Under the pieces are notes generated by a model, which worked only from the letters and a program-made list of their open reading frames with translations, did not search any database and was not told the DNA's origin. 64,000 nt of DNA from Eledone cirrhosa (Eukaryota), in NCBI GenBank assembly GCA_964016885.1, contig OZ024756.1:6820001-6884000 (forward strand). The letters run 5' to 3'. A program made the position numbers and the translations under genes. Shown piece after piece: positions 10,639-63,552 of this stretch. Position 1 is the first letter of the stretch, and the number at the start of each line of letters is the position of its first letter.

Positions 10639-10711
<73 letters not shown>

Positions 10712-10712
<1 letters not shown>

Positions 10713-11158
10713 CAATATTAATAAATGGAAACTATATTTATAAAATCATAATTATTTTATATATATTTCAAGGGCGACCAAGGTAAATTATGGTGTGCTT
10801 TCATCAGATAAAATACAGATTCGTTTTATTAATAAATATTGACTTACCCGGAAAAAGGAAAACCTCAACGGTTGAAATTCGCTGACTATCCCGCGAATTT
10901 CAACCGTTGAGGTTGTCTTTTTTCCGGGTATGTCAATATTCATTTATAAAACAAATCTGTATTTTATCTGATGAAAGCGCACCATAATTTACCTTGGTCG
11001 CCCTTGAAATATATATAATAAAATAATTATGGTTTTATAAATATAGTTTCCATTTATTAATATATTGTATATTTACTCCACTAAAAGTTGAGTGCTTTAT
11101 ATCAGTTATAAAAATGTTTAAGCTTGTTGAATCCCAACAAATTAAATATAACACCTTC
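10712..11158 (+). mobile_element. Palindrome + tail PLE-like element (family G)
   Basis: Arms about 10715-10882/10892-11063; homologues at 24867, 28993, 60243 and 63870. Confidence 0.85.
10960..11025 (+). ncRNA. Minimal type I hammerhead ribozyme (family G)
   Basis: tattttat CTGATGA aagcgcacca..tggtcgccctt GAAA tatat ATA ataaaata; 8-bp stem I. Confidence 0.8.
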
Positions 11159-14586: not shown

Positions 14587-14713
<127 letters not shown>

Positions 14714-14780
14714 ATGGAATACTGTTAGCTTCTCGCTACAACAATTTCCATACTTTTCATTTATATATATATATATATAT

Positions 14781-16597
14781 ATAAAAGTAGCGAAACAAAC
14801 GGTTATTAAACAATTTTCTAAATAAATTAAAAAATGATTAAATAATCACCTGTTCAGATGCTGTTACCGACAGTTTCATCATTCCGAAAGATTGGAAATC
14901 CAACGAATTTCCAATGGAAAGAAATGAATCTTCAGACAGCCCTATTTCCACGCTATAAGGTATAGCAAGTAAATATTATGCTCCCTGCCCAACGCATGCG
15001 GTCAAGCCGTTAAAGTGACACACACGCAAATCAGGTCGCTGATAAAAGCTGGATATTATAAACATGTCGAATTGCCACTAAAATTAGCGGCATTATTCAA
15101 CGTTTTGTTCTCTACGTAAGGAGAATAAATTATAGAAGTGGATGGATACTTCAACAGGTACAATGTACTTGTAGAAATATTCAAGTTGTTTATAATACAT
15201 GTGGTTCAATGGCACTAATTCGAGATACCAGAACAATATAAAAGTAGCGAAACACATGGTTATTAAACAATTTTCTAAATAAATTAAAAAATGATTAAAT
15301 AATCACCTGTTCCGATGCTGTTACCGACGGTTTCATCATTCCGAAAGATTGGAAATCCAACGAATTTCCAATGGAAAGAAATGAATCTTCAGACAGCCCT
15401 ATTTCCACGCTATAAGGTATAGCAAGTAAATATTATGCTCCCTGCCCAACGCATGCGGTCAAGCCGTTAAAGTGACACACACGCAAATCAGGTCGCTGAT
15501 AAAAGCTGGATATTATAAACATGTCGAATTGCCACTAAAATTAGCGGCATTTTCAACGTTTTGTTCTCTACGTAAGGAGAATAAATTATAGAAGTGGATG
15601 GATACTTCAACAGGTACAATGTACTTGTAGAAATATTCAAGTTGTTTATAATACATGTGGTTCAATGGCACTAATTCGAGATACCAGAACAATATAAAAG
15701 TAGCGAAACAAACGGTTATTAAACAATTTTCTAAATAAATTAAAAAATGATTAAATAATCACCTGTTCAGATGCTGTTACCGACGGTTTCATCATTCCGA
15801 AAGATTGGAAATCCAACGAATTTCCAATGGAAAGAAATGAATCTTCAGACAGCCCTATTTCCACGCTATAAGGTATAGCAAGTAAATATTATGCTCCCTG
15901 CCCAACGCATGCGGTCAAGCCGTTAAAGTGACACACACGCAAATCAGGTCGCTGATAAAAGCTGGATATTATAAACATGTCGAATTGCCACTAACATTAG
16001 CGGCATTATTCAACGTTTTGTTCTCTACGTAAGGAGAATAAATTATAGAAGTGGATGGATACTTCAACAGGTACAATGTACTTGTAGAAATATTCAAGTT
16101 GTTTATAATACATGTGGTTCAATGGCACTAATTCGAGATACCAGAACAATATAAAAGTAGCGAAACAAACGGTTATTAAACAATTTTCTAAATAAATTAA
16201 AAAATGATTAAATAATCACCTGTTCAGATGCTGTTACCGACGGTTTCATCATTCCGAAAGATTGGAAATCCAACGAATTTCCAATGGAAAGAAATGAATC
16301 TTCAGACAGCCCTATTTCCACGCTATAAGGTATAGCAAGTAAATATTATGCTCCCTGCCCAACGCATGCGGTCAAGCCGTTAAAGTGACACACACGCAAA
16401 TCAGGTCGCTGATAAAAGCTGGATATTATAAACATGTCGAATTGCCACTAAAATTAGCGGCATTATTCAACGTTTTGTTCTCTACGTAAGGAGAATAAAT
16501 TATAGAAGTGGATGGATACTTCAACAGGTACAATGTACTTGTAGAAATATTCAAGTTGTTTATAATACATGTGGTTCAATGGCACTAATTCGAGATA

Positions 16598-16600
<3 letters not shown>
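14781..16600 (-). repeat. Tandem array of 4 x 457-bp units, each with a hammerhead motif (retrozyme-like)
   Basis: Unit periods 457/456/457, near-identical, flanked by (TA)n. Confidence 0.95.
14860..14940 (-). ncRNA. Type I hammerhead ribozyme (copies at 15317-15397, 15773-15853, 16230-16310)
   Basis: gctgt CTGAAGA t-tcatttc..attggaaat-loop-atttccaat..ggaatga-t GAAAC cgtcg GTA acagc. Confidence 0.78.
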
Positions 16601-16682
<82 letters not shown>

Positions 16683-16759
16683 TATATATATATACATATT
16701 TGAGATCTAGTTGTCGAAACGGTCAGGGCTCAACCGTGGGTGTCCTGACTATTTTCCAT

Positions 16760-16792
<33 letters not shown>

Positions 16793-18368: not shown

Positions 18369-18892
18369 GGGAGAGAGAGAGAGAGGGGGAGAGAGAGAGA
18401 GACAGGGAGAGAGAGAGAACGGCTACAGAAATCCTTGGATATGACTCTACTCTGCAGAGTTGCCTTAAAGCACAGATTTGATGGCTGAAGATAATTTACA
18501 GAACGACGAGAGATGACATTCTAAACTCTAAGGAAAAAAGCCGAGCATAAGAATTTGAAAGACTGTTGCGGCGGGCAAGGACGAGAAAAGTTTACAAAGA
18601 AGATCAATTGAAAAGATGGCGAGTTTGGGGAATTTTTTTGAAGTTGGAATCGACGTACAAGTGCACAGAATAATATCAACAACAACAACAACAATAACAA
18701 TAATAATAATAAAATAATGATGATAATAACAACATCGCTAACAACAACGGCAAAAAAAATTTTAAATTAATAATAATAATAATAATAAATATAATAATAA
18801 TAATAATAATAATGATTTCTTTATTTATTCATTATTTATTTATTCATTTATTCTTTATTATTTATTTATTTATTCATTATTTATTCTTTATT

Positions 18893-18943
<51 letters not shown>

Positions 18944-18944
<1 letters not shown>

Positions 18945-20533
18945 GCGTGAAGATCAAGAGAGGTATCTTCCAGGGAGATAGCCTGTCCCCTCTGTTGTTT
19001 GTCCTTGCCCTGATGCCCTTGACCATTATGCTGCGAAAAGTGAGAGCAGGATACAAGTTGGGAAGGGGAGAGCTTACCATCAATCACCTCCTCTTCATGG
19101 ACGATCTTAAGCTCTTCGGGAAAAGTGAGAAGGAGTTGGATGTGCTTGTTGACACTGTCCGTATTTTCAGCAGTGATATATGTATGCAGTTTGGTATTGG
19201 TAAATGTGGAGTCATTGTGATGAGGAGGGGTAGGTTGAGCAGAAGTAACGGGATCCAGATACCAACAGGTGAGATGATAAAGGAAATTGACTCTGAGGAA
19301 GGATACAAGTATTTGGGCGTTCTGGAGGCTGATGGCATAAAGAACAAAAAAATGAAGGAATTGTTAAGAACTGAATACATTCGGAGAGTAAGGAGCGTAT
19401 TGAAGTCACATCTGAACAGCAGAAATGCCATAAGCGCAGTAAATTCCCGAGCTGTGTCTATTATTAGGTACAGTGCGGGAATTCTGAGATGGAATGTTGC
19501 TGAACAAAAAGAAATGGATAGGAAGACTAGGAAGCTATTGACTATCTACAACATGTTCCACAAGAGGAGTGATGTCGATAGACTCTACCTAAGGAGATCT
19601 GAGGGTGGAAGAGGTCTTATCAGCATAGAGGACTGTGTTCAGATGGAGAAAAACAACCTATACAAATACGTGACCTATAGTAAGGAGCCAATGCTCAGAG
19701 CTGTACTGAAGGAGGGGACAGTAGGCCAGGGGATACCCAAGGAGGAAATAACATCAAGGAGGAAGAGCAGCCTTAAGGGAAAATCCCTTCATAGTACCTT
19801 CTTTGAGAAAACTGAATTTAGAGATCCACAGACATGGAACTGGTTGAGAAGAGGAGACCTCAAAAAGGCTACAGAAGGAATGCTAATGGCTGCGCAGGAG
19901 CAGGCCCTCAAAACGAAGTGGTTGAAGCACCATATCTACAAGGAGGAGGCTAGCCCACTGTGCAGGATCTGTGGAGAGAGAGAGGAGACTGTGGCTCACA
20001 TTGTGTCCGAGTGTAAACACCTAGCCCAGACCCACTATAAGGGCTGGAGACACGATGTGATGGGCAGGGTGATCCACTGGCACCTGTGCAAAGTAAACAA
20101 CCTACCACATTCTGAGAAATGGTATGAGCATAGGCCAGAGGCGGTGATGGAGAACAATCAGGTGAAGGTGCTGTGGGATTTTAGGATACAGACGGACAAA
20201 AAACTGGAACACAATAGACCTGACCTGGTGGTTGTGGACAAAGAAAAAAGATCGTGCCTGATTGTGGATGTGGCCTGCCCGTTCGACACGAGAGTGCAAG
20301 AGAAGGAGAGGGAGAAAATTAACCGATACCAGGACCTAAAGTGGGAGGTGAAAAGGATTTGGAACTGCCATGAAGTCAAAGTGATCCCGATTGTCATAGG
20401 CGCACTGGGGACTATCTCCAAAGGTTTCCAGGGATGGTTAAAGAAAATCGGCCCCTTCACGCTTTTTGGAACGCTTCAAAAGGCATGCTTGCTTGGAACG
20501 GCAAGAACCCTCCGATACGTCCTGAATATCTGA
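18944..20533 (+). CDS. Partial RT, zinc finger and restriction-like endonuclease ORF (no native start)
   Basis: RGIFQGDSLSP, LLFMDDLKL, YKYLG, CRICGEREETVAHIVSEC, RHD, RPDLVVVD..IVDV, KINRYQDL; uninterrupted frame. Confidence 0.9.
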
Positions 20534-25384: not shown

Positions 25385-26155
25385 ATACACTGCAAGCGAA
25401 TATATCTTCTACAAGGCAATATATCTTCTAGCAATTAATATATCTTATAACAGTGAATATATCTTCTACCAATCGCTATATATTCTACCGATCGATATAT
25501 CTTCTACCAGGGAATATATCTTCTACCAGTGAATATATTTTCTGCCAGTCAATATATCTTCTACCAGTCAATACATCTTCTGCCAGTGAATATATCTTCT
25601 GCCAGTCAATATATCTTCTACCAGCGAATATATCTTCTGCCAGTGAATATATCTTCTGCCAGTCAATGTATCTTCTACCAGTGCATATATCTTCTACCAG
25701 TCAATATATCTTCTACCAGTGAATATATCTTCTGCCAGTCAATATATCTTCTACCAGTCAATATATCTTCTACCAATCAATATATATTTGTACCAGTGAA
25801 TATATCTTCTGTCAGTCAATATATCTTCTACCAGTCAATATATCTTCTACCAATCAATATATCTTTGTACCAGTGAATATATCTTCTGCCAGTCAATATA
25901 TCTTCTACCAGTCAATATATCTTCTACCAATCAATATATCTTTGTACCAGTGAATATATCTTCTGTCAGTCAATATATCTTCTACTAATCAATATATTTT
26001 CTGCCAGTCAATATATCTTCTACCAGGGAATATATCTTCGCCCGGTGAATATAACTTCTACCAGTGAATATAACTTCTACCAGTGAATATATCTTCTACC
26101 AGTTAATATATCTTCTACCAGGGAATATATCTTCTACTGATCGATATCTTCTAAC
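25385..26155. repeat. About 20-bp minisatellite (aatatatcttctaccagtc/g)
   Basis: Direct inspection. Confidence 0.93.
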
Positions 26156-28753: not shown

Positions 28754-28992
28754 AGTAAAAATTAGCGAGAATCGAATTTCAGCTTATGAAATAACGAAAA
28801 AACACTTTCGAATTGTGAGGCAAGCACTCAATAATTCAAAAGAATTAGAACTTACGTTAAAGGCCAAACACACTGAGATGGTGGTTAAACTAATTATCCA
28901 CACAGCGAAGATTCGATCTACTATTTCGGGTCAAACAGATATACAGATATAAAAATACATGAAAGCATAAATGTTTTATATATATTTATATA

Positions 28993-29550
28993 TACAATAT
29001 ATTAACAAATGGAAACTATATTTATAAAACCATATTTATTTCATTATACATATTTCAAGGACACCAAAGCAAATTATGGTGCGCTTTCATCAGATAAAAT
29101 ATAATATAGATCAGTTTTATAAACAAGTATTGACATACCCTTAAAGAATGCGACCATGTCGGTTGGAAGCTGCCAGTACATTTAAATTAAGCCGTTGGCT
29201 TAATTTAAATGTACTGGGATTTAAACCTCTCCGAGACTAATTTGCATAATAAACCAATTATAAAATTAGTAACCCCACTATCCGGGAGCTTCCAACCGAC
29301 ATGGTGGCACTCTTTAAGGGTATGTCAATATTTGTTTATAAAACTGATCTATATTATATTTTATGTGATGAAAGCGCACCATAATTTGCTTTGGTGTCCT
29401 TGAAATATGTATAATGAAATAAATATGGTTTTATAAATATAGTTTCCATTCGTTAATATATTGTATTTTTACTCCAATAATTTGTTGAGTGCTTTTATCA
29501 GTTATAAAAATATTTGCTTGTTGTATCCCAACAAATTAAATATAACTTCT
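28993..29550 (+). mobile_element. Family G palindrome + tail
   Basis: Inverted arms ending near 29465; left-arm hammerhead intact, right-arm core mutated to GTGATGA. Confidence 0.85.
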
Positions 29551-32917: not shown

Positions 32918-35900
32918 ATCAATTGAGAGTTGGCTGTTTGAACGCGCGTGGCCTGGGCTCAGCTTGGAAGCAAGCAAAGCTTCTAAGTGACCTCAGGTCA
33001 CAAAGTATAGATGTGATGGTTGTTTGCGAGAGTCGGATCAGCAGCGTGAGACAGCTGGCGCCCGCCTTCGATGACTTTGAGATGCACGCATCTCTCTGTC
33101 AACCCGGAGGCAGGGGAGGGGGGGGGGGGTGTTGCCGTACTGCTGGATAAACGTCTGGCTCTCGACGTACAGATTGTTCACTAGGACCCGGGGGGTGGAT
33201 TACTGGTGCTGGACGTCGGAGGCGGTGAAGGCGGGGCTTTCAGACTGGTCGGTCTTTATGCCCCCTTCGGGGCGGAAAGAGCCGACTTCTTCCAGCGTCT
33301 GGAGACTTTTCTAGGAACGTCGCGTTCCCTGCTTTTAGTGGGGGACTGGAATGGAATCCTAGATGCGCGTTGGGACTATGCAGGGGCATGTCCCGATAGA
33401 GGGGGGTGTAGCAGCCTCAAGGGGTTACTCGATCGATTCGACCTGGTCGATAAATTTCGACTAGATTGTCCAACTGCGCCAACCTGGACCTGGGAAAACC
33501 GCAGTGGACAATGTAGATCGTACCTAGATAGGTTTTTGGTGGTTAGGAGTAAGGATAGGGACGTATTTAGTTGTCCAGAACTGATCATGGTTGGCTATTC
33601 AGATCACAAATTAGTGACCTGCGTGGTCAACCTTGATAGAACGCATAGACAGGGTCCCGGTTACTGGAAGATGAACTTGTCCTTGCCGGCAAAGAAAGAT
33701 TACAGGAACCGGATTAGTAGCTTAGTTAAGATGCGGTTGACGGGAGCGATCGTCAACAGCAGGTGGTGGGTATCTCTAAAGAGAGAGATTAGAGTAAGTT
33801 CGATAGGTTACAGTAAGGAACTAGCGGCAAATAGAAATAGGAAGGAAAGGGAGTTAACAGATAAACTAGAAGAGGCGATTAGGAGCGGAGACGTGGCCAG
33901 AGTGTTAGCGGCGAGAACGGCGTTGAGCCAGTTCTTTGACGCGAAGCACGAAGGCTGCGTTGTCCGAAGTAAAATACGTGCTTTAGGAAACGAGGGGACC
34001 AAAGCTGTTAGCTGGGCCCGCGTGACAGAAGCCAAGAGTGGGATTAAATCCACCATTCGGTCTTTGCGAGACCAGGATGGACGGGTGATCCTTGAACCTG
34101 AGCGGATGTGCGAGGCCTTTCATAGGCACTTTGTTCGACTGTTCGGAGGGGGCGGGGGGCCGGACGGGGATGTGGACTTCGGTCCATACCTCGACGGTCT
34201 ACCGCGTCTTTCGAGAGGCGAAGCGGAGTGCTGCGAAAGGCCAATCACGGCCACTGAAATCGGGGAAGCGCTCAGCCAATGCAGCAGACGATAATCTCCG
34301 GGTCTCGATGGTCTACCATACGAACTTTATTTAGCTATGCCGGTCTTGTTCTCCGAAATCCTCGAGGCTGTCTATTGCAACTGGCAACAGAACGGGAGAA
34401 TTCCCTGTTCTGTGACCAAGGGCGTGGTCACGATAGTGAGGAAGGACGAGAGCAAAGGGGACGACTTAAGTAACTTTAGGCCCATAACTCTGCTAAATGC
34501 AGAGTTACAGATTTTGGCCAAGGTGTTGGCGAAGAGGTTGGCGCTTGTGGTGGGTGGTTTGGTGGGAGACGCGCAGACATGCGCTATCCCGTTCAGGTCC
34601 ATTCACGACAACCTCCACCTCATGCGATACATCGTAGAGAGGGTTGGCAACGAACCCGGCTTTGGTGGGGCCCTGATCAACTTGGTTCAATCTAAGGCGT
34701 TCGATAGGGTCGACCATGGTTACCTGGATGCGGTGCTAGCGGCGGCGGGCTTCGGACCCGTTTTCAGGGGCTGGATTTCTGCCATGCACAGTGGCAACAT
34801 CTACTCTAGGATTAAAGTAAACGGCTACCTCTCGGAGCCGTTTCAAATCACCCGGTCCATCAGACAGGGGTGCCCCCTCTCCTCCCTTCTGTACGTATTG
34901 ACTCTCGAGCCACGGCTGCGGAAGTTGGAGTTGCTGCGGGGCATACCCCTGGGACCGGGATTGCACAAAACGGTCTCGGCCTATGCCGACGACGTAACAG
35001 TAATGGTGGCGGACGCCTCGGAAATCGGGGCGATCGCCACCCTACTGGAGGAATACGAAAGGCTGACGGGGGCTAAGCTGAACCAGGACAAGTCAGTCGG
35101 TTTGCAACTCGGAACGTGGAGGGGCAAACCGATGCCGTTAGACGGTGTCGTCGGGCGGTGGACAGAGGGCCCGGTGAAGCTGCTCGGGGTCTGGTTCGGA
35201 CCGGACCTCCAGGTGGAGAAGAATTGGGGCGAGGTGACGAGCAGGGTGTTTGCGCTGACCCAGAAGTGGGCCAAGTGCAAACTATCACTGAAAGGTCGGG
35301 CGGAGGTGACGAACGCTTACATAGCGTCTGTCATCTACTACTGCCAGACCGTCGTGCCTTGCCCCAAGGAAAAGCTCACCATCATGGAACGCATGCTCTT
35401 CCAGTTCCTCTGGAAGAAGCGGCCTCCCATGGTGAGGAGATCCATCTGCTGCCAGCACCCTTCGAAAGGAGGGCTGGGTATGCCGTGGCTGTTGATGCGT
35501 AGGCACGCATTGAGGCTACGGCATCTACAGGTATTCCTCAACGGTCAGCCGGTGTGGGCCCCGTTTGTGAGGCGAGCCTTCCCACAGCTCGTCTCGCTCA
35601 CCGAACTGCAATCCTGGGTGAAGCAAAGACCGAGAAAACTGAGCAACTGGCACACCGAGTGTGCCCAGGCGCTCACGGCTATCTGGCAAGCGGACCCGAC
35701 TGTCAGTGGAGAATCCACCTCGACATTCTATAGAGGGTTGGTGGCTAGCAAGGGCGACGATACCCTTGGAGAGTCGCTAGGCATGGAGGAGGACGAACTG
35801 GCCAGCCTGTTCGGCAGAACTTTCGGCCCGGGACCCATGGACAACTTCCAGAGGTCCCTAGCCTGGCAGTGTTACCGGGGGGCTCTGCCCGTTCGAGAAA

Positions 35901-36364
35901 AGCTCTACAGACACGGGCGCCCGGGGAGGGATCCCGCGAAAAAGATCTGTCCCAGATGCGTGCGCGACGAGGAAACGGTTGCGCATGCACTGGTACACTG
36001 CCCGGGAGTTGCCGATCTGTGGGGCTACGTCGAACGACTGCTGTCGCGTGTGGCGCCGATTCGATTAACCGCCGAGTCTGTGGTGAACATCAAGCCGCCT
36101 CCTCTCTTTAGAAATGAAGCAGAGGCGGTCTTTCTGTGCGTAATAGCCATGATGATAGAGGTTGTGTGGTGGACGCGCCTGAAAGGTCTGTGGTCGGGTG
36201 ACTTTCTCTCCGGCCATCACCTGGTTTACTTCTTCCGATACCACTTCGGAAGAAGGATCAGGATGGAGAGAGAAGTGCTTGGCCCCAGACAGTTTTATGA
36301 AAGGTGGGTGAAAGAAGCGAGAATGGCCCGTGTAAATGGGCCTTCTCTCTACATTGTTCTGTAG
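32914..36364 (+). pseudogene. ORF2 APE endonuclease, reverse transcriptase and C-terminal zinc finger, two frameshifts
   Basis: LNARGL, GDWN, SYLDRFLV, SDHKLV, WKMN, NFRPITLLN, KAFDRVDH, RQGCPLS, AYADD, CPRC...HALVHC. Confidence 0.92.
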
Positions 36365-36669: not shown

Positions 36670-36862
36670 CGAAGGAAACGTTGTAAGGAACCAGATGGAC
36701 CATAGCGCACCAAAGTACTCAATACGTAGGGTAGTAGAGTGGGTAATAGGCCCCCTACGGCTGAGCTCAGGCCGTTTCTACGGCTAATTCTGGACTAAAA
36801 TTTGAGTCCGGAATTAGCCGTCGAAACGGCTTGAGCTCAGCCGTAGGGGGCCTACTCGTTCC
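36668..36862 (-). mobile_element. Short palindrome + tail family V (copies 37253-37430, 62075-62240; fragments 16700-16760, 42235-42300, 54510-54555, 61950-62030)
   Basis: Shared ggaaccagatggaccat..agtactcaat tail; GAAAC-ggct..agcc-GTA/GTC hammerhead 3' half. Confidence 0.78.
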
Positions 36863-36894
36863 TATATATATATATATATATATATATATAACAA

Positions 36895-43420: not shown

Positions 43421-45009
43421 AAACAATACTGAAGCATACGTGTGTCATATTGTCGATAGATGATATATATGTGTAAAATAATGATCAGAGAACTTCTATT
43501 TTATTAAACAATACTGAAGTGTACCTGTGTCATATTGTCAATAGGTGATATATAGGTGTAACATAATGATCAGAGAACTTCTATTTTATTAAACAATACT
43601 GAAGCATACGTGTGTCATATTGTCAATAGGTGATATATAGGTGTAACATAATGATCAGAGAACTTCTATTTTATTAAACAATACTGAAGTGTACCTGCGT
43701 CTTATTGTCAATAGGTGATATATATGTGTAAAATAATGATCAGAGAACTTCTATTTTATTAAACAATACTGAAGTGTACCTGCGTCTTATTGTCAATAGG
43801 TGATATATAGGTGTAAAATAATGATCAGAGAACTTCTATTTTATTAAACAATACTGAAGTGTACCTGCGTCTTATTGTCAATAGGTGATATATATGTGTA
43901 AAATAATGATCAGAGAACTTCTATTTTATTAAACAATACTGAAGTGTACCTGTGTCATATTGTCAATAGGTGATATATAGGTGTAAAATAATGATCAGAG
44001 AACTTCTATTTTATTAAACAATACTGAAGTGTACCTGCGTCTTATTGTCAATAGGTGATATATAGGTGTAAAATAATGATCAGAGAACTTCTATTTTATT
44101 AAACAATACTGAAGCATACGTGTGTCATATTGTCAATAGGTGATATATATGTGTAAAATAATGATCAGAGAACTTCTATTTTATTAAACAATACTGAAGT
44201 GTACCTGCGTCTTATTGTCAATAGGTGATATATAGGTGTAAAATAATGATCAGAGAACTTCTATTTTATTAAACAATACTGAAGCATACGTGTGTCATAT
44301 TGTCAATAGGTGATATATATGTGTAAAATAATGATCAGAGAACTTCTATTTTATTAAACAATACTGAAGTGTACCTGCGTCTTATTGTCAATAGGTGATA
44401 TATAGGTGTAAAATAATGATCAGAGAACTTCTATTTTATTAAACAATACTGAAGTGTACCTGCGTCTTATTGTCAATAGGTGATATATAGGTGTAAAATA
44501 ATGATCAGAGAACTTCTATTTTATTAAACAATACTGAAGCATACGTGTGTCATATTGTCAATAGGTGATATATATGTGTAAAATAATGATCAGAGAACTT
44601 CTATTTTATTAAACAATACTGAAGTGTACCTGCGTCTTATTGTCAATAGGTGATATATAGGTGTAAAATAATGATCAGAGAACTTCTATTTTATTAAACA
44701 ATACTGAAGCATACGTGTGTCATATTGTCAATAGGTGATATATATGTGTAAAATAATGATCAGAGAACTTCTATTTTATTAAACAATACTGAAGTGTACC
44801 TGCGTCTTATTGTCAATAGGTGATATATAGGTGTAAAATAATGATCAGAGAACTTCTATTTTATTAAACAATACTGAAGTGTACCTGTGTCATATTGTCA
44901 ATAGGTGATATATAGGTGTAAAATAATGATCAGAGAACTTCTATTTTATTAAACAATACTGAAGTGTACCTGTGTCATATTGTCAATAGGTGATATATAG
45001 GTGTAAAAT
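43421..45009. repeat. 85-bp tandem satellite, about 18.7 copies
   Basis: aaacaatactgaag... recurs at 43421, 43506, 43591, 43676 and onward. Confidence 0.97.
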
Positions 45010-51007: not shown

Positions 51008-51567
51008 AAGACGCGTGGCTTTGTGGTCAGGGTATTTGGCTCAAGTTCGTGAGTTCGATTCCAGGTGGTGCGCTGGCTCCTTGAGCAAGGCACTTTATTT
51101 CCCGTTGCTCCAGTCCACTCAGCTGGCAAAAATAAGTTGTACCTGTAATTCGAAGAACCAGCCTTGTCACATTCTGTGACACGCTGAATCTCCCGGAGAA
51201 CTACATTAACAGTACACGTGTCTGTGGAATGCTCAGCCATTTGCACGTTAATAGATGAACTGTGCCTGTAATTCGAAGAGCCAACCTGGTCACATTCTGT
51301 GTCACGCTGAATCTCCCTGAGAACTACGTTAACAGTACACGTGTCTGTGGAATGCTCAGCCATTTGCACGTTAATAGATGGACTGTGCCTGTAATTCGAA
51401 GAGCCAGCCTGGTCACATTCTGTGTCATGCTGAATCTTCCTGAGAACTACGTTAAGGGCATGTGTGTTTGTGGAATGCTCAGCCATTTACACGTTTATTT
51501 CACTAGCAGGCTGTTCCGTTGATGGATCAACTGGAACACTCGTCGTAGTAACTAATGGAGTGCCCTC
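51008..51567 (+). mobile_element. tRNA-derived SINE (family C) with an internal roughly 122-bp triplication
   Basis: A box tggctttgtggtca, B box gagttcgattcc, ccttgagcaaggcac; cctgtaattcgaag repeated three times. Confidence 0.88.
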
Positions 51568-60242: not shown

Positions 60243-60635
60243 AGTTCTATTTAAAATTGTTGGGATACAACAAGTAAATATTTTTATAACTGATATAAAG
60301 CACTCGACAATTTTTGGAGTAGATATACGATATTAATAAATAGAAACTATATTTATAAAACCATATTTATTTCATTATACATATTTCTGGGATACCACAT
60401 TAAATTATGGTATGCCTTCATCAGACAAAATACAACATATGACAGTTTTACAAATAGGTTTGACAGCCTCCAAAAGTAATGGTTGTATTTAAAGGGTACG
60501 TCAAACCTATTTGTAAAACTGTTATATATTGTATTTTGTCTGATGAAGGCATACCATAATTTAATGTTGTATCCCTGAAATATGTATAATGAAATAAATA
60601 TGGTTTTATAAATATAGTTTCCATTTATTAATATC

Positions 60636-60637
<2 letters not shown>
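60243..60637 (-). mobile_element. Family G palindrome (60327-60637) with left tail, hammerhead motif in both arms
   Basis: tattttgt CTGATGA aggcatacc...ccct GAAA tatgt ATA atgaaata. Confidence 0.82.
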
Positions 60638-60688
<51 letters not shown>

Positions 60689-61355: not shown

Positions 61356-61411
<56 letters not shown>

Positions 61412-61489
61412 GGAATACTGTTGGCTTCTTGCTACAATAATTTCTATACTTTTTATTTTTATATATATATATATAAGCTATTAATTTCA

Positions 61490-62237: not shown

Positions 62238-62282
<45 letters not shown>

Positions 62283-62532
62283 GAGAGGTATAGAGATTGT
62301 TTTAGCAAGAAGCTAACGGCATTCTATAACATATATGCGACTATAACGTCAAGATGGGAAAAGTAGTTAACGAAAGATTTAGGAAAAATAACTCAGACTC
62401 ATCTCAAAAGAGAATCAGGATATAAATTCATCCACAGAATTTAGTAAAATCCATGGAAAAATCTATAGACCTTTAACACATGATAAAATAAAGTTTGAAA
62501 CACTCATCCTTCAATTTGGAATAACATCAAAT

Positions 62533-62613
62533 GCTCTGTATAGTCTTAAAAGACTATTTCATGAAAACTTTCAGTGGAGATGGTCACGGTTGGATTTCAT
62601 TCATCAGCAGAGC
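62533..62613 (-). ncRNA. Canonical type I hammerhead ribozyme
   Basis: gctctg CTGATGA atgaaa..tttcat GAAA t-agtct-ttta-agact ATA cagagc; all three stems perfectly paired. Confidence 0.9.
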
Positions 62614-63160
62614 TCAACAGAAACCAGGGCTCTCACAGTAATATAATCCGAAAAAGGGAATTCTAAAACTGGCTAGTTCACCTTCATGTGTATTTATGAA
62701 AAAGCACATGAGGAAAAAACGGGGCTAGTGACGTCAGGGTGGAAGTGAATGTTTATTTACAAGAAATAGCAGTCAAATACATTCTGAAAAAAACTCTACA
62801 AAGGAGTTCAGCAAAATAGCAATAATTATCACAGTTTTTATGAAAAAAACCGGGATTAGTCACAGATAGTTTAAGCACTCTAGGAAAAGAATCCGAGTAT
62901 AAATATAAATGAGAGGTATAGAGATTGTTTTAGCAAGAAGCTAACGGCATTCTATAACATATATGCGACTATAACGTCAAGATGGGAAAAGTAGTTAACG
63001 AAAGATTTAGGAAAAATAACTCAAACTCATCTCAAAAGAGAATCAGGATATAAATTCATCCACAGAATTGAGTAAAATCCATGGAAAAATCTATAGACCT
63101 TTAACTCATGATAAAATAAAGTTTGAAACACTTATCCTTCAATTTGGAATAACATCAAAT

Positions 63161-63241
63161 GCTCTGTATAGTCTTAAAAGACTATTTCATGAAAACTTTC
63201 AGTGGAAATGGTGACGGTTGGATTTCATTCATCAGCAGAGC
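63161..63241 (-). ncRNA. Canonical type I hammerhead ribozyme, second copy
   Basis: Identical core and stems; two substitutions in loop II only. Confidence 0.9.
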
Positions 63242-63552
63242 TCAACAGAAATGTATATATAATATGATACGAAACAAAAGGAGTTGTGTGGTTACTAAAA
63301 ACAAGGTTTAGGATGGTGGTTTGGTCGGAACAAGAGGAGAAAAGAAGAAAGAATCCTTCGTCAGCTGTAAACCTGCGATCCAGATGTTTCGGCGCTTATT
63401 TACGAGACAAAAGGAAGGAAAAAGAGGGAAAAGGGGAAGAAGAAAAAAGGGGAATAGGTGGTGAGGAGAAAAGAAGAAAAAGAAAAGGGAAAAAGGAGAA
63501 TAAAACAGGTGAACAGATCCCATCGTATACATGTATGTATGTGTTTGTGTGT

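What the first reader, a model, noticed from the sequence alone, without database searches (positions are those of the whole stretch)
14781..16600. 4 x 457-bp non-coding tandem array with one hammerhead per unit: candidate retrozyme/circRNA source
Seen: near-identical head-to-tail units with no listed ORF, inserted in (TA)n, each with a minus-strand hammerhead (GUA triplet, short stem III) at 457/456/457-nt spacing. Known: animal retrozymes are tandem hammerhead repeats processed into monomeric linear and circular RNAs, and minimal hammerheads cleave as dimers. Inference: a young insertion copied from a circular RNA template by rolling-circle reverse transcription.
Basis: partly seen in the sequence, partly recalled or inferred. 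Interest (0 to 1): 0.85.

Follow-up and report, generated by a model that had tools for sequence, protein, structure and literature searches.

The report
Four-copy hammerhead retrozyme in TA repeat
This is a young four-copy insertion of a small non-coding mobile repeat carrying a predicted self-cutting hammerhead RNA, a known kind of animal element; its fixed insertion point makes it a handy case for testing whether such elements are copied from RNA circles.

Summary
14779-16600 is 4.0 head-to-tail copies of a 457-bp non-coding unit (99% alike) inside (TA)n, each with a minus-strand type I hammerhead (cuts after 14865/15322/15778/16235). Family variants in public runs respect the fold: 5 of 7 listed hammerhead changes are unpaired, the other two are one compensatory pair. 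It fits the published definition of an animal non-LTR retrozyme, with a Penelope (PLE)-type hammerhead. New detail: the array does not begin or end at the ribozyme cut. All four insertion ends seen (two here, two in public contigs) lie within 12 nt of the unit's only ATATA, 82-86 nt 3' of the cut, just after a long hairpin, like the internal reverse-transcription start of the anole PLE (85-92 nt). A cleaved linear monomer could template only those ~85 nt, so the template was more than unit length. Circle versus uncleaved read-through transcript is not resolved; rolling-circle copying is plausible, not shown. No RNA run and no genome were available; no partner PLE protein was found in the window. 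The hammerhead has a U-U pair at the base of stem II and may cut weakly. Verdict: new member of a known kind.

The parts
14779..16600 (-). Whole insertion: four head-to-tail 457-bp units (5-6 nt short of four whole units); hammerhead-sense strand is minus
14779..15235 (-). Unit 1 (3'-most in sense); one private change at 14873 turns a stem III C-G into U-G
15236..15691 (-). Unit 2 (456 bp; three substitutions, one deletion)
15692..16148 (-). Unit 3 (one substitution at 15995)
16149..16600 (-). Unit 4 (identical to the majority sequence; lacks the last 5-6 nt of the unit)
14860..14940 (-). Type I hammerhead, cut after 14865
15317..15397 (-). Type I hammerhead, cut after 15322
15773..15853 (-). 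Type I hammerhead, cut after 15778
16230..16310 (-). Type I hammerhead, cut after 16235: 5-bp stem I, long stem II (7+11 bp), near-palindromic stem III
   Evidence: variants mapped
16159..16232 (-). Long hairpin between the cut and the insertion point (same in every unit); candidate signal for the PLE protein
   Evidence: z -2.54, 3 of 200 shuffles as good; its apex 16175-16209 is shared with a sister hammerhead family
16149..16153 (.). ATATA, the unit's only 5-nt alternating TA stretch (also 14779, 15236, 15692): the register of all four insertion ends seen; inferred priming and resolution site
14762..14782 (.). (TA)n target, left side; follows the 3' end of another hammerhead-like repeat family at 14705-14763
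16600..16699 (.). (TA)n target, right side

Best explanation
A non-autonomous, hammerhead-bearing element of Penelope-like (PLE) ancestry, i.e. an animal non-LTR retrozyme, recently inserted as a multimer. Shown in DNA: four near-identical units, one hammerhead each, a dispersed and diversified family, ends at a fixed ATATA inside (TA)n. Inferred: the minus strand is transcribed; a PLE RT/endonuclease supplied in trans nicks (TA)n and primes reverse transcription internally, at the UAUAU just 3' of a long hairpin and 82-86 nt 3' of the ribozyme cut; copying then runs through the cut site and round several units, so the template is longer than one unit; the second end is resolved at or near the same ATATA by microhomology with the target. 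The template is either a ligated monomeric circle (dimer-type hammerheads excise a 457-nt RNA) or an uncleaved read-through multimer; I put these at about even odds. Later unequal crossing-over may have changed the copy number.
For: Array and hammerheads. Selection on the fold: 5 of 7 listed variant sites in the hammerhead fall on the 19 of 81 free positions (P about 0.01) and the other two form a U-A to C-G compensatory pair, both at the depth of one contig; none hits the core. A sister family keeps stems II and III but has an unrelated 26-bp stem I and a GUC triplet (loose ends, read by eye). Stem III is unstable alone (+0.4 kcal/mol) but stable as a duplex (-11.3), as for dimer-acting PLE hammerheads (PMC4209133). 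Cut-to-cut monomer folds far better than shuffles (z -5.04, 0 of 100; circular z -4.4). Dispersed family: 5754 reads laid in one run, of which 2012 are 99+% alike and 2387 under 95%; an X1 contig has the same left end after a different flank, another (about 90% alike) ends at the same site before a TA run. End geometry matches the anole PLE: cut 26 bp and RT start 111-118 bp into its ORF (PMC11167929). The three internal junctions contain a 5-6 nt linker absent from the array's right end, so the units were not copied from the terminal unit. 9 of 14 hammerhead-like sites in the window have (TA)4+ 30-150 nt 3' of the cut, against 20% of random sites (P 4e-4).
Against: No RNA evidence could be examined, so transcription, cleavage and circles are untested. 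The base of stem II is U-U, not the conserved G10.1-C11.1, and the hammerhead helices have low predicted probability in a two-unit transcript (stem I 0.14-0.28); 8 of 9 predicted Xenopus retrozymes showed no cleavage in vitro (bioRxiv 2026.07.22.740005). No PLE RT or GIY-YIG frame was found in the window, so PLE partnership is inferred. A rolling circle does not by itself predict a 5' end in register with the 3' end. Only 40 of 79 variant rows were shown. The closed 486/487-nt contigs in X2 and X3 could be this same locus collapsed, and the diverged X1 contig crossing the junction has only about 22 nt on one side, under the tool's 31-nt rule.
Confidence: 0.75

Rival explanations
1. Local DNA-level amplification: one monomer (or a dimer) of a PLE-derived repeat inserted in (TA)n and was then multiplied in place by unequal crossing-over or slippage, as a minisatellite.
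For: Near-whole number of units; this route is proposed in print for retrozyme arrays (bioRxiv 2026.07.22.740005 discussion); the closed contigs in X2 and X3 may be this one locus.
Against: The internal junctions carry a linker that the right end lacks, which needs an extra small deletion if the start was a monomer; no (TA)n spacer lies between units; the six differences are all private, with no shared derived change; a diverged contig appears to cross the same junction (short overlap). Expansion from an inserted dimer is not excluded.
Confidence: 0.15
2. The unit is simply the pseudo-LTR of an active autonomous PLE, and the array was built by template jumping or by repeated homing of the element into its own AT-rich junction, with no independent retrozyme cycle.
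For: PLE-type hammerhead architecture and end geometry; the anole PLE nicks AT-rich DNA in its own pLTR; one X1 contig (1256 nt, depth 19.9) carries 866 nt beyond the unit's end that I could not read; an ATG ATG inside stem II followed by a donor-like CAG/GT could be a remnant ORF start (by eye).
Against: That contig's extension starts with a TA run, as a target site would; no coding sequence adjoins the array; the whole unit is strongly self-paired, as retrozyme RNAs are.
Confidence: 0.08
3. Assembly artefact or chance motif: a monomer expanded by the assembler, with a fortuitous hammerhead.
For: The array sits between microsatellites in a repeat-rich window; Rfam does not detect the ribozyme.
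Against: Units carry private differences; the unit-to-unit junction is bridged by contigs in two other runs (X2 record 7, X3 record 10) and variants respect the fold.
Confidence: 0.02

Closest known systems
Animal non-LTR retrozymes (Cervera and de la Pena 2020, PMC7229834; Li, Clavereau and Pollet 2026, bioRxiv 10.64898/2026.07.22.740005)
   Same: Non-coding tandem units with a type I hammerhead in each, low GC (35%), highly self-paired predicted RNA, four units (75% of families reach at most seven), unit length inside the 51-972 bp range.
   Different: Hammerhead is of the PLE type (long stem II, 5-bp stem I) rather than the canonical loop-loop type of coral retrozymes; unit slightly over the 150-450 bp first reported; RNA not examined; a fixed insertion register in (TA)n is not described in the parts of those papers that I read.
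Pseudo-LTR hammerheads of Penelope-like elements (Cervera and de la Pena 2014, PMC4209133)
   Same: Larger helix II, short helix I, small palindromic helix III, dimer-type fold, head-to-tail arrangement; the circle-template model was already proposed there.
   Different: No ORF here; G10.1-C11.1 replaced by U-U; stem II is much longer than the 7-8 bp described.
Poseidon element of Anolis carolinensis, PAc (Frangieh et al. 2024, PMC11167929)
   Same: Element 3' end set internally, about 85-92 nt 3' of the hammerhead cut, at a stem-loop; AT-rich target.
   Different: PAc is autonomous and starts at a site not homologous to the target; here the end coincides with a 5-nt TA microhomology and the element is non-coding. 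No sequence comparison was made.
Axolotl retrozyme HHR_Amex2 (PMC7229834)
   Same: U-U mismatch at the base of stem II, short stem III, better cleavage expected as a dimer.
   Different: 350-bp unit, canonical-size helices, RNA circles demonstrated.
Non-autonomous Chlamys PLEs such as MRC1, and (TA)n-targeting Naiad/Neptune PLEs (Craig et al. 2021, PMC8557442)
   Same: Multicopy head-to-tail non-autonomous insertions; microsatellite targets that hide target-site duplications.
   Different: Naiads and most Chlamys lack canonical hammerheads; the partner clade here is unknown.

Membership tests
Animal non-LTR retrozyme | Tandem repeat with a complete type I hammerhead in at least two consecutive units (fold below -5 kcal/mol) | tested here: met
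   4 of 4 units; hammerhead fold -20.5 kcal/mol; criterion
Animal non-LTR retrozyme | Non-coding unit of a few hundred bp, GC under 50% | tested here: met
   457 bp, GC 35.4%, longest stop-to-stop frame 81 aa, no Pfam hit
Animal non-LTR retrozyme | Highly self-paired monomer RNA | tested here: met
   z -5.04 linear, z -4.4 circular, 66% paired
Animal non-LTR retrozyme | Dispersed, mobile family | tested here: met
   Two X1 contigs end at the same site with flanks unlike the window's or in a diverged subfamily; many haplotypes in X13 reads
Animal non-LTR retrozyme | No LTR, PBS or PPT; TSD long when present | tested here: inconclusive
   No LTR-internal structure in the array; PBS and PPT not searched; a TSD cannot be read inside (TA)n
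Animal non-LTR retrozyme | Self-cleavage, and accumulation of linear and circular monomer RNA | not testable with these tools
   No RNA holder listed; needs bench work
Animal non-LTR retrozyme | Homology to the pLTR of a co-resident PLE | tested here: inconclusive
   No genome held; no PLE ORF in the window
Autonomous Penelope-like element | ORF with RT and GIY-YIG endonuclease between pLTRs | tested here: not met
   No such frame in or beside the array; the window's RT frames are LINE-like
PLE-type (minimal/variant) hammerhead | Long helix II, 4-5 bp helix I, small palindromic helix III able to pair as a dimer | tested here: met
   against PMC4209133
PLE-type (minimal/variant) hammerhead | Conserved G10.1-C11.1 pair | tested here: not met
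   U opposite U at the base of stem II
PLE-mobilised element | 3' end set internally a short way past the hammerhead cut, in an AT-rich or microsatellite target | tested here: met
   82-86 nt, in (TA)n against 85-92 nt for PAc; two 3' ends seen
Rfam hammerhead families | Reaches an Rfam hammerhead model score | tested here: not met

The most novel reading that the evidence does not exclude
This family keeps the PLE's internal priming site (hairpin plus UAUAU, about 85 nt past the ribozyme cut) on a 457-nt RNA circle, and its genomic multimers are direct rolling-circle, target-primed copies of that circle into (TA)n. Because priming sits so close to the cut, only a re-ligated circle or an uncut transcript can be copied in full, so the hammerhead and ligation would act as the gate for transposition. 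That would join the retrozyme circle model to the PLE internal-initiation mechanism, a link that I did not find stated in the papers returned. A side possibility: near-identical units under three organism labels reflect recent spread between species.
Probability: 0.35. Interest if true: 0.6.

Novelty: new member of a known kind. Interest (0 to 1): 0.33.

Why it matters
As an element it is ordinary: animal genomes hold from a few to thousands of such arrays. Its use is as a test case. How retrozymes enter new sites is proposed, not shown. Here the insertion point is fixed, lies at the PLE internal-initiation distance from the cut, and rules out a cleaved linear monomer as the template, so circle versus uncut multimer becomes a sharp, testable choice in a young family with clean ends.

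Tried and rejected
Own genome: none held, so no genome-wide census or partner search. Rfam: no hammerhead hit at either threshold. RNA: no RNA holder listed; this says nothing about expression. Metagenome pattern scan gave 2 loci that share only the 20-nt pattern: chance. Viral contigs: 0 matches. Other copies of the unit in the window: none beyond the array. PLE protein in the window: Pfam on 14 frames and on 96 of 126 complex frames of 62 aa or more (of the other 30, 10 were, 19 overlap the LINE frames, 1 lies in a tandem repeat) found no GIY-YIG or PLE RT; a scan with recalled PLE motifs printed nothing. Read piles in X13 at 16365/16368 sit on a GCATGC site and the loose ends at 16276, 16443 and 16455 on AATT sites: library cuts, not biology (enzyme reading recalled). 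The joint 16456 to 16000 arises from my permuted reference and is no evidence for tandems or circles; only pieces that cross 16142-16153 count. Uneven spread of differences among units (4 of 6 in unit 2) is not significant by hand calculation (about 0.15). Earlier scan notes held nothing on this sequence or genome.

Full report
Observation. Tandem Repeats Finder gives 14779-16600, period 457, 4.0 copies, 99% matches, with (TA)n on both sides. The four units differ at six places, each private to one unit: one in unit 1, four in unit 2, one in unit 3, none in unit 4, about 0.3% of sites, so the array is young. No other copy lies in the window. A motif scan finds one minus-strand type I hammerhead per unit, cutting after 14865, 15322, 15778 and 16235, the 457/456/457 spacing reported. 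The unit is 35.4% GC; its longest stop-to-stop frame is 81 aa with no Pfam match. Rfam does not see the ribozyme.

The ribozyme. Stem I has 5 bp, stem II has 7 plus 11 bp around an internal loop, and stem III is ACCGUCGGU. Stem III costs +0.4 kcal/mol as a hairpin and gains -11.3 as a duplex with a neighbour, the dimer-type design described for PLE hammerheads (PMC4209133, parts 1-2 of 4 read). Against activity: the base of stem II is U opposite U rather than G10.1-C11.1; in a two-unit transcript the helices have modest predicted probability (stem I 0.14-0.28, own stem III 0.05, cross stem III 0.14); and unit 1 has a weakened stem III. The axolotl Amex2 ribozyme has the same U-U defect, cleaves better as a dimer and yields circles (PMC7229834, parts 2-4 of 6 read), but 8 of 9 predicted Xenopus retrozymes did not cleave in vitro (bioRxiv 10.64898/2026.07.22.740005, parts 1-3 of 5 read). 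For selection on the fold: among the 40 of 79 variant rows shown when four public runs were laid on one unit, seven lie in the hammerhead; five are on the 19 of 81 free positions (P about 0.01), the other two are a U-A to C-G compensatory pair, and none is in the core. Loose ends in X1 and X2 show a sister family that keeps stem II, stem III and a 35-nt piece downstream but has an unrelated 26-bp stem I and a GUC triplet (read by eye). The cut-to-cut monomer folds at z -5.04 (0 of 100 shuffles), and as a circle at z -4.4 against 60 shuffles, better than the opposite strand (-118 against -97 kcal/mol).

The family. Nine of 15 listed runs hold the stretch or part of it, seven with half or more of its words, in five studies; none is on record as RNA. 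I laid 4 of the 15. In the raw-read run X13, 5754 reads were laid: 2012 at 99% or more, 1355 at 95-99, 1587 at 90-95, 800 below 90, so the family is dispersed and has subfamilies. X2 and X3, under other organism labels, each hold a 486 or 487 nt contig that is the unit closed on itself with one or two differences; these bridge the unit-to-unit junction, but at depth 3-6 they may be this same locus collapsed, and they may be close relatives or traces, so I do not count them as new loci or as horizontal transfer. A diverged X1 contig (12 changes and 2 gaps in 124 nt) also crosses the junction, with only about 22 nt on one side.

The ends. The array does not start or stop at the cut. Its left end (3' in hammerhead sense) joins (TA)n at the unit's only ATATA, 82-86 nt 3' of the cut, just after a hairpin that spans nearly the whole interval (z -2.54; pair probabilities mostly 0.6-0.98 in the two-unit fold). 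Of four listed family variants at paired sites of that hairpin, three keep or strengthen the pair and one breaks it; three more fall in an unpaired linker and one beyond the hairpin. X1 record 5 has the same left end after a different flank, and X1 record 2, about 90% alike, has its right end at 16153 followed by a TA run. The window's right end is 5-6 nt short of that point. So four of four ends seen lie within 16142-16153 in unit numbering. In the anole PLE the cut lies 26 bp and the reverse-transcription start 111-118 bp into the ORF, i.e. 85-92 nt apart, at a stem-loop, with AT-rich targets; uncut RNA was the main substrate and hammerhead mutants still inserted (PMC11167929, parts 1-2 of 4 read). 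The window shows the same habit widely: 9 of 14 hammerhead-like sites have (TA)4 or more 30-150 nt 3' of the cut, against 20% of random sites (P 4e-4; the motif scan itself had no shuffle control), and some lie in inverted pairs, as PLE insertions do (PMC8557442, passages read).

Mechanism. Shown: structure, family, register, target. Inferred: a PLE protein in trans nicks (TA)n and primes internally at the UAUAU after the hairpin. A cleaved linear monomer would then template only about 85 nt, so whole units need a circle, an uncut multimer or template jumps. The three internal junctions hold a 5-6 nt linker that the array's right end lacks, so duplication of a monomer in place needs an extra deletion; at least a dimer was most likely inserted. 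A rolling circle does not on its own explain why the far end is also in register; capture of the cDNA at the only TA microhomology would, for either template. The DNA cannot tell circle from read-through transcript, and I give them about even odds within the best explanation (0.75). Rivals: local amplification 0.15, pLTR of an autonomous PLE with homing or jumps 0.08, artefact 0.02. No PLE ORF was found in the window and no genome is held, so the partner is unknown.

Comparison and novelty. The array meets the published working definition of an active non-LTR retrozyme and the sequence features given in PMC7229834; RNA-level features were untestable. It is not an autonomous PLE. Retrozymes as non-autonomous PLE derivatives, the circle-template model and (TA)n targeting by PLEs are all in print. 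I did not find a statement that retrozyme insertions have a fixed register at the PLE initiation distance in the papers I read or in the listings of searches; supplements of these papers, including the retrozyme life-cycle figure of PMC7229834 and the tables of the 2026 preprint, were not seen and may bear on that. An earlier scan note (e1-7810660) reports a TA-targeted tandem repeat of similar habit in another genome; I did not check it and do not count it as support. That the host is an animal is my inference from the microsatellite-rich sequence and LINE-like frames.

Verdict. Real, young, well formed, and of a known kind. Interest 0.33; up to 0.6 if a circle is shown to be the template.

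Noticed in passing
window 1616, 11017, 24447, 25035, 29045, 29690, 39858, 50114, 60376, 60588, 62539, 63167, 63928: Thirteen further hammerhead-like motifs in several families; most end in (TA)n 38-141 nt past the cut, one family at two alternative distances (about 48 and 140 nt), and some lie in inverted pairs (10705-11075, 28992-29466, 60320-60644). A few may be chance; no shuffle control was run on the scan.
   Followed up: partly
window 14661-14779: The left flank is the end of another repeat (matches 61357-61475, 62258-62336, 62898-62964), the 3' end of the hammerhead-like pair at 62270-63251; the array inserted into that element's TA tract.
   Followed up: partly
window 16700-16772: The right flank holds what looks like the 3' half of another hammerhead element ending in TA, 77% like 36820-36879.
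   Followed up: partly
window 16217-16252, minus strand (each unit): ATG ATG inside stem II opens a 14-codon frame through the cut site with a donor-like CAG/GT; possibly a remnant PLE ORF start with an intron. Seen by eye, untested.
   Followed up: no
window 16000-16456 laid on runs X1, X2, X3: The unit is 99% or more identical under three coded organism labels in three studies, while diverged subfamilies were seen only under one label; close relatives, trace DNA or recent transfer cannot be told apart.
   Followed up: partly
window 16175-16306 laid on runs X1, X2: A sister hammerhead family with a 26-bp stem I, GUC triplet and the same stem II, stem III and downstream hairpin apex.
   Followed up: partly
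window 18713-20530 and 33185-36361: LINE-like frames: RT with zf-RVT, and endonuclease plus RT with zf-RVT split over two frames.
   Followed up: no
window 43421-45009, 25399-26137, 51138-51495: Other tandem arrays: 85 bp x 18.7 (95%), 19 bp x 38.7, 123 bp x 2.9; no hammerhead motif hit in them.
   Followed up: no
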